This document shows, in pieces, positions 21,286 through 23,340 of a stretch of 64,000 bases of DNA. How positions within the stretch are numbered: position 1 is the first letter of the stretch; each line of letters opens with the position of its first letter. Below the pieces are notes generated by a model, which was not told where the DNA came from, did no database searches, and was given only the letters and a program-made list of their open reading frames with translations. The position numbers and the translations under genes are program-made. The DNA is from Bacillota bacterium (lineage in GTDB: Bacteria; Bacillota; Clostridia; Oscillospirales; Ruminococcaceae): assembly GCA_023388515.1 (NCBI GenBank), contig JAEWGD010000005.1:26259-90258 (forward strand). Reading direction: 5' to 3'.

Positions 21286-21969
21286 CTATTTTAATTTCTC
21301 ACACAACGGCAGGATTTCTTCCAGTTTGGCAACGATTCGCTGTTGTTCGGCGAGGGGTGGGAGGGGAATAAGACAACTTTTCAGATAGTCTTTGTGAATA
21401 CGTTGCTGACCAGCAGTTCCAGTAAATAATTTTACACCATTAACAATAAAATAGTCAGTCTTAAAAAACCAAAGTAAAAACTCATTAAACAATGTATTCT
21501 TAATTACTCTTACAATCGATAACTCCGTAGTACCAGCACCATATTCATTTTCTAATTCTTTGAAAATTACCGATTTTCTGTTTTGAAAGCACGGGGTGAT
21601 CTTGGCAACACCTATGTCACCATTTGCAAAATGGGTAAAGCCTTTTTTGATCTCTTTCCATTTCCTCACTTCAAATGTATGTTGATTTCTAAATCCACCA
21701 GACACACATGGCATTGGTATAAATGCCACATCCAGGTTGTCATCAATAACGTTCTTTGGATTCAATGTAGTAATGCTACCAACCCTTACCCACTTCCAAC
21801 TCTCTGGAATTGGCTCCATCTTTTTGTTATCATAAATACCTTTAGATTTCTTTTCTGCTTGTATTAAAGAGTACAGTTCTTCAGCAGAACCTTCTTCGGT
21901 GCGCTGTTCAACAAGCCTCCCGCATATTGCTAATTGAATAATACTGTTTTTCAGTTCCTGTGGTGTCAT
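21286..21969 (-). CDS. hsdS: type I restriction-modification specificity subunit, half-size (single TRD)
   Basis: Circularly arranged central conserved region at the N-terminus (ELKNSIIQLAICGRLVEQ), one target-recognition domain, and C-terminal LPPLAEQQRIVAKLEE. It overlaps the hsdM stop. Confidence 0.7.
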   Translation of the reverse strand: MTPQELKNSIIQLAICGRLVEQRTEEGSAEELYSLIQAEKKSKGIYDNKKMEPIPESWKWVRVGSITTLNPKNVIDDNLDVAFIPMPCVSGGFRNQHTFEVRKWKEIKKGFTHFANGDIGVAKITPCFQNRKSVIFKELENEYGAGTTELSIVRVIKNTLFNEFLLWFFKTDYFIVNGVKLFTGTAGQQRIHKDYLKSCLIPLPPLAEQQRIVAKLEEILPLCEKLK

Positions 21970-23340
21970 TCTTTGGCACCTCCGAGAATGGAGGTAATTT
22001 CAGCAAGCACATGGTCAATCTTGGAATTCAGCGATGCCCGTCGCTCTTCGTACTGCTGAATCAAGTCCATCGGGTCGAGGATTTCCTCTTCCTTGTGAGG
22101 ATAGCCACACTGGTCGAGGTTATAGCCAAAATCATCGGTAAGTTGTGGTGCTGTGTATTTCTTTGCCTTATCAAAGCCGTCAATATTAATCTCCTGTCGG
22201 TCATTCAACCATTCGACCACTGGGTTGAAATGCTCCAGTTTCATTGGCCTGGTTTTAGAGAAGTGCTTATAGCCCTTAGGCATATCCAGACGGTAGAACC
22301 ATGTTTCTGTGGTCGGCTTTGTGCGCTCAAAGAACATGATGTTCGTGGTGATGGAAGTGTAGGGTGCAAACACGCTGTTCGGCATCCGTATGACTGTATG
22401 CAGATTAAATTCCGAGAGCAGTTTTTTTGATGTTTACTTTCGCATTGTCTGTACCGAACAGAAACCCGTCTGGAATGATAACAGCTACACGCCCGTTTTT
22501 CTTTAAGCGGTACATGATGACAGACATAAAGAGGTCTGCTGTTTCACTGCTGGCAAGGTCGGCGGGGAAATGGTTCTTGACATCTGCTTTTTCACTGCCA
22601 CCATACGGGGGATTCATCAGAATGACATCGAACTGATCGTCCTCTGTATAATCCAACACATCCCGCAGTAGAGAGTTGTCATGATAGATTTTTGGTACAT
22701 CAAGACCATGAAGTAGCATATTTGTAATGCAAAGCATATACGGGAACTGCTTTTTCTCAACGCCGTAAATCGAATTATCATATTCACGTTGGTCGCCTGT
22801 AGTCTTAATCAATGGAGAGAGCTCTTTCAGCCAGCTTGTAATAAAGCCACCAGTACCACAGGCAAAGTCTGCCATTCGCTCGCCAATTTTCGGCTGTATC
22901 ATTTTTGCCATGAAATCAGTGATGGCACGAGGCGTGTAAAACTCACCAGCAGAACCTGCACTCTGTAATTCACGGAGAATGGATTCATAGATTTCACCAA
23001 AGGCATGGCTTTCTTCATAGTCGCTTAAATCCAATTCGTCTATAGTATTGATGACTTGACGGAGCTGGACACCATCTTTCATATAGTTGTTGGCATCTTC
23101 AAAGGTTGTCTTAACAATGGATTTCTTAATCGGAGTGTCTGGTGTCACATTCAGTTCTTTGAGTGTGGGGAAAAGAGTATTGTTGACAAAATCCATCAGT
23201 CTATCACCAGTCATGGCGTTGCCACTCTTGTCATCTACAGCCCAATTGCTCCAACGGCACTCCTCTGGAATAAAAACCCTGTCGTGTAACATCAAGCGTT
23301 CTGCAATAGAAAGCGATTTTGCCCATAATTTTTCCATCAT
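21966..23340 (-). pseudogene. hsdM: type I RM DNA methyltransferase HsdM, frameshifted at an A7 tract (22422-22428)
   Basis: N-part 22405-23340 carries GEFYTPR, FACGTGGF, NPPYGG and RVAVIIPDGFLFG. C-part 21966-22385 carries ...NIMFFERTKPTTETWFY. Deleting one A from the A7 run gives a continuous IKKLLSEFNLHTVIRMPNSVFAPY... reading frame. Confidence 0.75.

What the first reader, a model, noticed from the sequence alone, without database searches (positions are those of the whole stretch)
21286..23340. Type I RM remnant: hsdM interrupted at an A7 tract (restorable by a 1-nt change) plus half-size hsdS, no hsdR
The two minus-strand ORFs 22405-23340 and 21966-22385 are the N- and C-parts of one HsdM. 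Removing a single A from the A7 run at 22422-22428 yields a continuous IKKLLSEFNLHTVIRMPNSVFAPY... sequence that matches the HsdM consensus. Homopolymer-length frameshifts are a classic phase-variation switch for RM systems, though a sequencing error is also possible. The adjacent HsdS has a single TRD. No HsdR is present, so this may be an orphan methyltransferase or phasevarion-like regulator rather than a defence system.
Basis: seen in the sequence. Interest (0 to 1): 0.5.

Follow-up and report, generated by a model that had tools for sequence, protein, structure and literature searches.

The report
Decayed Type I restriction-modification remnant
This is a roughly 2 kb dead fragment of a widespread, horizontally mobile Type I restriction-modification operon: the restriction gene and the start of the methylase gene are missing and the methylase also carries a frameshift, so it is an ordinary pseudogene remnant and not a phase-variation switch.

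Summary
The sequence facts hold. An A7 run sits at 22422-22428. The two minus-strand ORFs are pieces of one HsdM. A 227-aa single-TRD HsdS follows. No hsdR is in the window.

Intact relatives are 492 aa and 85-92% identical, in an operon ordered HTH-hsdR-hsdM-hsdS. Homology to them, in protein and in DNA, starts abruptly at codon 58 (window 23271). So hsdR, the promoter and the first 57 hsdM codons are gone.

The A7 run is not a conserved repeat. At this site 91 of 91 related loci encode Lys-Lys-Lys with 9 nt, always interrupted by G. The window therefore has a net 2-nt deletion. Deleting one A restores the frame but gives KK, not KKK, and still yields an N-terminally truncated protein.

A7 is below the 9-nt criterion used for phase-variable hsd genes, and 32 A7/T7 runs occur in this window. 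No length variants were found.

The half-size hsdS is not in itself decay. The same single-TRD form occurs in intact R-M-S operons elsewhere.

Verdict: a pseudogenised remnant. Interest is low.

The parts
21286..21969 (-). hsdS, single-TRD ('half-size') specificity subunit, 227 aa, intact ORF. N-terminal conserved region is about 21811-21969, the TRD about 21385-21810, and the C-terminal conserved region 21289-21384. Its start overlaps the hsdM stop (ATGA).
   Evidence: Pfam Methylase_S 7e-09. Residues 1-53 are nearly identical to the N-terminus, and the last ~27 residues to the C-terminus, of the 462/463-aa two-TRD HsdS of L083/L085. It aligns end to end with 240-252-aa half-size HsdS, but has a 13-residue gap in the linker before the TRD. 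The same TRD occurs as TRD1 or TRD2 of full-length HsdS in L015, L032, L049, L069 and L072.
21966..22421 (-). 3' part of hsdM after the frameshift, corresponding to residues ~342-492 of the 492-aa family protein. The listed ORF 21966-22385 starts at the first internal ATG.
   Evidence: tblastn of the intact HsdM of L083: residues 340-492 match window 22427-21969 at 87% identity. Alignment.
22422..22428 (-). A7 run at the frameshift site. It replaces the family's 9-nt Lys-Lys-Lys codons, a net 2-nt deletion.
   Evidence: Sequence. 80/80 genome loci plus 11 further loci encode KKK (3 of the 80 loci: KNK, KRK or KTK) in 9 nt, never as an uninterrupted A run.
22429..23271 (-). 5'-truncated body of hsdM, corresponding to residues 58-~341 of the 492-aa protein. 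It contains the AdoMet-binding motif DFACGTGGF and the catalytic motif NPPYGG.
   Evidence: tblastn: L083 HsdM residues 58-344 match window 23271-22411 at 94% identity. DNA homology of 89% to L083 starts abruptly at 23271. The Pfam HsdM_N match covers only profile positions 58-135 of 135.
23272..23340 (-). 23 codons with no homology (MMEKLWAKSLSIAERLMLHDRVF) that give the truncated hsdM an accidental in-frame ATG. The 5' breakpoint of the remnant lies at 23271/23272.
   Evidence: No alignment to any homolog upstream of IPEECRW. No Pfam match for the peptides encoded upstream. No similar DNA in the window or the loci.
21279..21288 (-). 3' breakpoint of the remnant. DNA similarity to the family ends at or just after the hsdS stop codon.
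   Evidence: blastn to L083/L085 ends at window 21285/21279. Downstream genes of intact loci (Abi_C, a 250-aa protein) are absent from the window.

Best explanation
The segment at about 21280-23271 is a non-functional fragment of a horizontally mobile Type I R-M operon. In intact form the operon reads HTH regulator - hsdR (~780 aa, EcoEI_R_C-type C-terminus) - hsdM (492 aa) - hsdS.

A deletion or illegitimate recombination event removed the regulator, all of hsdR and the first 57 codons of hsdM. It joined codon 58 to unrelated AT-rich host DNA. This event is inferred from the abrupt breakpoint.

Separately, the Lys-Lys-Lys codons at residues 339-341 lost 2 nt. That left an A7 run and a frameshift that stops translation after 311 residues, inside the methyltransferase domain. 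The route is inferred: either a direct AG/GA deletion, or a G-to-A change giving A9 followed by slippage.

hsdS remains an open single-TRD gene, a form that is natural in this family. Without a working HsdM it has no partner encoded here.

The locus therefore neither restricts nor methylates. The A7 run marks a fixed inactivating mutation, not a switch.
For: 1. Intact architecture: L083 carries HTH, 780-aa HsdR, 492-aa HsdM, 463-aa HsdS and Abi_C. L085-L087 are similar.
2. In 80 genome loci, hsdM is a single uninterrupted match spanning residues 1-8 to 487-492 in 79 of 80. L073 is cut by its contig end. hsdR lies directly upstream wherever the contig allows.
3. In the window, protein and DNA homology begin at residue 58 / position 23271. 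The Pfam HsdM_N match lacks profile positions 1-57.
4. The KKK site is 9 nt and interrupted in 91/91 loci. The window has 7 nt.
5. The truncated product ends inside the N6_Mtase domain, which spans residues 111-389 of the restored protein.
6. There is no hsdR in the window.
7. The remnant is 44-46% GC (hsdM) against 30-38% in the flanks. The family is 85-92% identical across distant taxa. Both fit foreign origin.
8. There is a mild excess of private changes at otherwise invariant columns: HsdM 4 against a mean of 0.48 in 108 homologs, and HsdS 3 against a mean of 0.52.
9. The same A7 state appears in an independent assembly, and the 311-aa product is on 4 contigs.
Against: - The coding sequence is otherwise well preserved: 92% identity to the closest intact HsdM, catalytic motifs intact, and hsdS open. 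Inactivation is therefore recent, and the private-substitution excess is only tied for top, not an outlier.
- An in-frame ATG precedes the truncated gene, so some expression cannot be excluded.
- No reads, methylome or transcript data could be examined.
- The rest of the genome (contig of at least 309 kb) was not available, so a partner system elsewhere is not excluded.
Confidence: 0.85

Rival explanations
1. Phase-variable orphan methyltransferase. Slipped-strand mispairing at the A tract toggles hsdM ON (A6, or A9) and OFF (A7). The M2S2 enzyme built with the half-size HsdS methylates a palindromic site and acts as a phasevarion.
For: One-nucleotide deletion reopens a 457-aa frame with all methyltransferase motifs. 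Half-size HsdS are known to act as homodimers recognising interrupted palindromes (PMC3874165). Phase-variable hsdM genes exist (PMC7383803), and that paper notes that some shorter tracts, such as G7 in Neisseria, can vary.
Against: - A7 is below the 9-nt criterion, and the tract lies about 68% into the gene rather than in the 5' region where that survey found most hsdM SSRs.
- The tract is absent from 91/91 homologous loci (G-interrupted 9 nt). It is therefore a lesion, not a conserved contingency repeat.
- The ON state would still lack residues 1-57, and would have KK instead of the KKK found in 88 of 91 related loci.
- No tract-length variant product is in the protein collection, and no metagenome match was found.
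- 32 equally long A/T runs occur in the window.
Confidence: 0.04
2. Assembly or sequencing error at the homopolymer. The real genome has an open frame here (for example A9 = KKK) and the split is an artefact.
For: Homopolymers are error-prone in some platforms. The true ancestral length is 9 nt, and under-calling of a long A run is a typical long-read error.
Against: - A k-mer based Logan assembly of SRR13243540 gives the identical sequence over 9859 bp.
- The 311-aa product is recorded on 4 contigs from NCBI, ENA and Logan, although these may derive from the same reads.
- Eleven other runs of 7 nt or more lie in intact ORFs of 300 aa or longer.
- Even if corrected, the 5' truncation and the missing hsdR remain.
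Confidence: 0.05
3. Only hsdS matters. The intact single-TRD HsdS is used in trans by a complete Type I system of the same family elsewhere in the genome, adding a second specificity. The broken hsdM is irrelevant baggage.
For: hsdS is an uninterrupted ORF with both conserved regions that contact HsdM. Single-TRD HsdS of this type work in intact operons of the family. From general knowledge, stand-alone hsdS genes that combine with chromosomal hsdM/hsdR are described in lactococci.
Against: - No partner system is in the window.
- hsdS has no promoter of its own that stands out: 8 promoter-like sites against 6.9 expected. It is translationally coupled to a broken hsdM.
- Its linker is 13 residues shorter than in all eight half-size relatives aligned, and it carries 3 private changes at invariant columns.
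Confidence: 0.06

Closest known systems
Intact hsdR-hsdM-hsdS operons of the same family in Bacillota MAGs and isolates (e.g. L083 = ERZ12298803 NODE_2909; Weizmannia acidilactici and Clostridium viride DSM 6836 homologs). Closest solved HsdM structures: 3UFB and 5YBB.
   Same: HsdM residues 58-492 are 85-92% identical, with 89% nucleotide identity to L083. The hsdM-hsdS ATGA overlap is the same. The HsdS N- and C-terminal conserved regions are the same. An intact family member (P0004) matches PDB 3ufb_A at 3e-104 and 5ybb_A at 1e-82.
   Different: The window lacks the HTH gene, hsdR and hsdM codons 1-57. It has a net 2-nt deletion at the KKK codons. It carries one TRD instead of two.
Homodimeric / truncated HsdS systems (NgoAV; engineered EcoDXXI and EcoR124I half-HsdS), as reviewed in PMC3874165
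   Same: The HsdS has one TRD flanked by both halves of the conserved coiled-coil regions. This is the architecture that dimerises and gives a symmetric bipartite target. Natural counterparts of this same TRD sit in intact operons L090-L094.
   Different: Here the partner HsdM is broken and HsdR is absent. In NgoAV the truncation comes from a homopolymer tract inside hsdS. Here hsdS has no such tract, and the tract is in hsdM.
SSR-controlled phase-variable hsdM genes (Haemophilus influenzae CGAGA repeats, Mannheimia haemolytica ACAGC repeats; PMC7383803)
   Same: A repeat-associated frameshift in hsdM gives a premature stop.
   Different: Those tracts are long, lie in the 5' region of the gene, are conserved with variable length among strains, and sit in otherwise intact systems. 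Here the tract is a 7-nt run created by a deletion, mid to late in the gene, absent from all relatives, in a 5'-truncated gene without hsdR.

Membership tests
Type I restriction-modification system (functional) | HsdR (helicase/nuclease) subunit encoded with the system | tested here: not met
   tblastn with the family's 780-aa HsdR found nothing in 64 kb. Pfam scans of 20 of the larger ORFs show no ResIII/HSDR_N. hsdR lies directly upstream of hsdM in the related loci. The rest of the genome is not testable.
Type I restriction-modification system (functional) | Full-length HsdM with N-terminal domain, AdoMet-binding and NPPY catalytic motifs in one open frame | tested here: not met
   The motifs are present, but the frame is broken at 22422-22428 and residues 1-57 are missing.
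Type I restriction-modification system (functional) | HsdS with TRD(s) and conserved regions | tested here: met
   Methylase_S domain. N- and C-terminal conserved regions match full-length and half-size relatives. One TRD only, and the linker is 13 aa shorter than in the half-size relatives.
SSR-mediated phase-variable hsd gene (phasevarion type) | Repeat tract of a length shown to be hypermutable (at least 9 for mononucleotides in PMC7383803) | tested here: not met
   The tract is A7. Criterion. 32 A7/T7 runs occur in the window.
SSR-mediated phase-variable hsd gene (phasevarion type) | The tract is a conserved feature of the gene, with length differences between strains or homologs giving ON and OFF alleles | tested here: not met
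   91/91 homologous loci have an interrupted, in-frame 9-nt KKK coding stretch. No A6, A8 or A9 products are in the collection. No metagenome hit was found for any tract length of 5-11. The organism is poorly sampled, so this is weak negative evidence.
SSR-mediated phase-variable hsd gene (phasevarion type) | Within-population tract-length heterogeneity and switching methylation | not testable with these tools
   This needs the reads of SRR13243540 and methylome data.
SSR-mediated phase-variable hsd gene (phasevarion type) | The ON state encodes a complete, functional methyltransferase | tested here: not met
   The restored frame gives a 457-aa protein. It lacks residues 1-57 of the 492-aa family protein and one of the three lysines.

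The most novel reading that the evidence does not exclude
The N-terminally truncated HsdM, when its frame is reopened by A7-to-A6 slippage in DNA or by transcriptional slippage in RNA, still assembles with the homodimeric single-TRD HsdS. It would then act as a low-frequency, stochastically expressed orphan m6A methyltransferase (a phasevarion) in an Oscillospiraceae-like, dockerin-bearing gut or rumen anaerobe.
Probability: 0.03. Interest if true: 0.5.

Novelty: already known. Interest (0 to 1): 0.1.

Why it matters
It matters little biologically, because degraded R-M fragments are common in bacterial chromosomes.

The practical value is for annotation. This locus should be marked as hsdM pseudogene fragments plus a single-TRD hsdS. 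It should not be counted as a defence system, an orphan methyltransferase or a contingency locus.

There are two modest side points. First, this HsdM family is unusually conserved (85-92%) across distant Bacillota and beyond, which indicates frequent horizontal transfer. Second, single-TRD HsdS are a recurrent natural form inside intact operons of this family. A 'half-size hsdS' should therefore not by itself be read as decay.

Tried and rejected
1. IS3-like origin of the upstream peptide. From memory, MKFIALKTNDGKIMGKIAFYCRTLDVTRQGFY (23231-23365, minus strand) looked like an IS3-type transposase N-terminus, which would explain the 5' breakpoint. Pfam at E up to 10 found nothing. No similar DNA or protein exists elsewhere in the window or the loci. 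The idea is dropped, and the origin of 23272-23522 remains 'probably native intergenic DNA'.

2. Exact look-up of hypothetical A6, A9 and A8 products. None is in the collection.

3. Metagenome scan for the tract with any length of 5-11 between exact flanks. Zero hits.

4. Looking for close relatives of the host with the same synteny, using the neighbouring 455-aa protein. The next-best homolog is only 59% identical, so in-situ decay could not be told apart from acquisition of a fragment.

5. Attempts to obtain the NCBI record or organism name through the look-up of encoding contigs. These returned only the Logan contig or nothing.

6. Promoter and terminator scan. 8 promoter-like sites against 6.9 ± 2.5 expected, and 0 terminators. 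Uninformative.

7. -1 ribosomal frameshifting. By inspection the site (ATC AAA AAA ACT) does not fit an X XXY YYZ heptamer, and the shift needed is +1 or -2. Not pursued.

Full report
**Observation**

On the minus strand the window reads ...GTAAACATC AAAAAAA CTGCTCTCGG..., with the A7 run at 22422-22428. The 311-aa ORF at 22405-23340 ends 5 codons after the run (...NIKKTALGI*). The next frame continues as LLSEFNLHTVIRMPNSVFAPY... down to 21966.

Removing one A gives a 457-aa protein. Its Pfam N6_Mtase match (8e-61) spans residues 111-389 and so crosses the junction. It also matches HsdM_N, but only profile positions 58-135 of 135. The ORF at 21286-21969 is a 227-aa Methylase_S protein.

**What intact relatives look like**

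A search of 5.8 billion proteins returned thousands of relatives. The best are 492 aa and 85-92% identical, but they cover only about 95% of the query. The alignment shows two differences:
- Homology begins at IPEECRW, which is residue 58 of the 492-aa proteins. The window's first 23 residues (MMEKLWAKSLSIAERLMLHDRVF) match nothing.
- All relatives read IKKKLLSEF, whereas the frame-restored window protein reads IKKLLSEF.

Contigs carrying the closest relatives show the native operon. It runs small HTH gene - hsdR (780 aa; ResIII, DEAD and EcoEI_R_C domains) - hsdM (492 aa, 6 nt after hsdR) - hsdS (462/463 aa, overlapping the hsdM stop) - Abi_C or another gene.

In 80 loci from one-genome-per-species contigs:
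- hsdM is a single uninterrupted match from residues 1-8 to 487-492 in 79 of 80. One locus is cut by its contig end.
- The family's hsdR lies directly upstream wherever the contig reaches that far.
- The downstream MTPQEL-type hsdS is typically 447-529 aa.

**The 5' lesion**

DNA alignment and blastn place the start of similarity to L083/L085 at window 23271, at 89% nucleotide identity down to 21802. That stretch covers hsdM codon 58 through the first ~56 codons of hsdS. No similarity exists upstream.

The 250 bp between 23272 and the divergently transcribed 455-aa gene is AT-rich. It has no Pfam-recognisable coding content and no copy elsewhere. The real start of that neighbouring gene is 23583, as confirmed by an identical database protein.

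So the regulator, hsdR, the operon's upstream region and 57 codons of hsdM are absent. tblastn with the family HsdR finds nothing in the 64-kb window. Pfam scans of 20 of the larger ORFs show only housekeeping genes and other unrelated proteins, such as PolA, PEPCK, TsaD, Ffh, biotin carboxylase, an RTX-repeat protein and an LRR-dockerin protein.

**The frameshift**

At the homologous site, all 80 genome loci and 11 further loci carry 9 nt. The forms include AAGAAAAAG, AAAAAGAAA, AAGAAGAAA and AAGAAAAAA. None is an uninterrupted A run, and all are in frame.

The window's 7 nt is therefore a net 2-nt loss that also removed the interrupting G. It is not an expansion or contraction of a conserved repeat.

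A7 runs are commonplace here. The window has 17 A7 and 15 T7 runs, and 13 longer A/T runs. Eleven runs of 7 nt or more lie inside intact ORFs of at least 300 aa, which argues against systematic homopolymer miscalling.

An independently built Logan contig from SRR13243540 is 100% identical over 9859 bp, including the A7 run. The 311-aa product is recorded on four contigs from NCBI, ENA and Logan. Hypothetical A6, A9 and A8 products are absent from the 15-billion-protein collection. A metagenome scan allowing any tract length of 5-11 found nothing. Both are weak negatives because the organism is rarely sampled.

**Comparison with phase-variable hsd genes**

The systematic REBASE survey (PMC7383803, read) required at least 9 nt for mononucleotide tracts. 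It found hsdM repeats mostly in the 5' region of otherwise intact genes. It acknowledges that some shorter tracts, such as G7 in Neisseria, can vary.

The present tract fails the length criterion. It lies about 68% into the gene and is not conserved. Its 'ON' state would still be an N-terminally truncated protein without its native promoter or hsdR. The phase-variation reading is therefore not supported.

**hsdS**

The 227-aa protein has three parts:
- the N-terminal conserved region of the family (residues 1-53, nearly identical to L083/L085);
- one TRD;
- the C-terminal conserved region (...PLPPLAEQQRIVAKLEEILPLCEKLK, matching the C-terminus of the full-length proteins except for one K-to-Q change).

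The same TRD occurs as TRD1 or TRD2 of two-TRD HsdS in other loci.

A search with this protein found many 225-260-aa relatives covering it end to end: 32 of the top 120 clusters. Several lie in complete operons. L090 has hsdR 796 aa, hsdM 504 aa and hsdS 250 aa. L091-L094 have 777, 494 and 252 aa, with that HsdS found on at least 24 contigs across several samples.

Homodimeric single-TRD S subunits recognising interrupted palindromes are established for truncated EcoDXXI subunits and NgoAV (PMC3874165). The half-size hsdS is thus a natural architecture and not, in itself, evidence of decay.

The window copy does have a 13-residue shorter linker than all eight half-size relatives aligned. It also has 3 private changes at otherwise invariant columns, against a mean of 0.52. 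Its functionality is therefore uncertain.

**Degree of decay**

Apart from the two lesions, hsdM is well preserved. It shows 4 private differences at invariant columns, against a mean of 0.48 in 108 homologs. That is tied for the maximum and not an outlier. This suggests recent inactivation.

The hsdM part is 44-46% GC, against 30-38% in the flanks. The family is nearly identical across distant taxa. Both are consistent with horizontal acquisition.

It could not be decided whether an intact operon decayed in place or a fragment was acquired as such. No close relative of the host is available; the neighbouring gene's next-best homolog is 59% identical.

**Conclusion**

The best-supported explanation (confidence about 0.85) is a pseudogenised remnant of a Type I R-M operon. 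hsdR and the 5' end of hsdM are deleted, hsdM is additionally frameshifted by a 2-nt deletion, and a single-TRD hsdS is left without a partner.

The rivals are each at or below about 0.06: a phase-variable orphan methyltransferase, an assembly error, and trans-use of hsdS by another system.

The finding is ordinary. Its main use is correct annotation.

Noticed in passing
window 20663-21061 (+): 132-aa ORF with a Cys/Pro-rich [14 protein letters not shown] stretch followed by GPTGxTG collagen triple-helix repeats (Pfam Collagen 5e-09). It looks BclA/exosporium-like and is unusually short. A GC-rich inverted repeat at about 21100-21140 looks like its terminator.
   Followed up: partly
window 25010-28918 (+): 1302-aa protein with RTX calcium-binding nonapeptide repeats (HemolysinCabind 1e-35) and an HCBP_related domain, in a low-GC, Clostridia-like chromosome.
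   Followed up: no
window 13156-14529 (-): BspA-type leucine-rich repeat protein with a C-terminal type I dockerin. This implies a cellulosome-bearing, Ruminococcus/Oscillospiraceae-like host.
   Followed up: no
window 23583-24947 (+): 455-aa protein with no Pfam domain. It belongs to a family of about 500 uncharacterised proteins (440-500 aa, some about 700-770 aa), mostly from Oscillospiraceae MAGs. The listed ORF start 23523 is probably 20 codons too early.
   Followed up: partly
L090 8001-8753; L091 8001-8759; L092-L094: Single-TRD (250-252 aa) HsdS carrying the same TRD sit in complete hsdR-hsdM-hsdS operons. In L091-L094 the operon is followed by a Ser/Thr protein kinase gene and DUF3990/DUF3791 genes. 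The arrangement recurs on at least 24 contigs from several samples.
   Followed up: partly
L082 556-1056: A second orphan fragment of the same TRD (94% identical) from SRR8925735. It lacks the N-terminal conserved region, lies next to an HTH gene and glycoside hydrolase genes, and has no hsdM or hsdR on the 9-kb contig.
   Followed up: partly
loci L001-L080 (genome contigs): This HsdM family is 77-89% identical across very distant hosts. They include Thermaerobacter, Desulfosporosinus, Christensenellaceae and Syntrophomonadaceae, and even Kiritimatiellae, Spirochaetia and Hyphomicrobiales MAGs. This indicates very frequent horizontal transfer, or binning contamination. About 10 loci carry a 42-nt insertion in hsdM (match length 1347 against 1305).
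   Followed up: no
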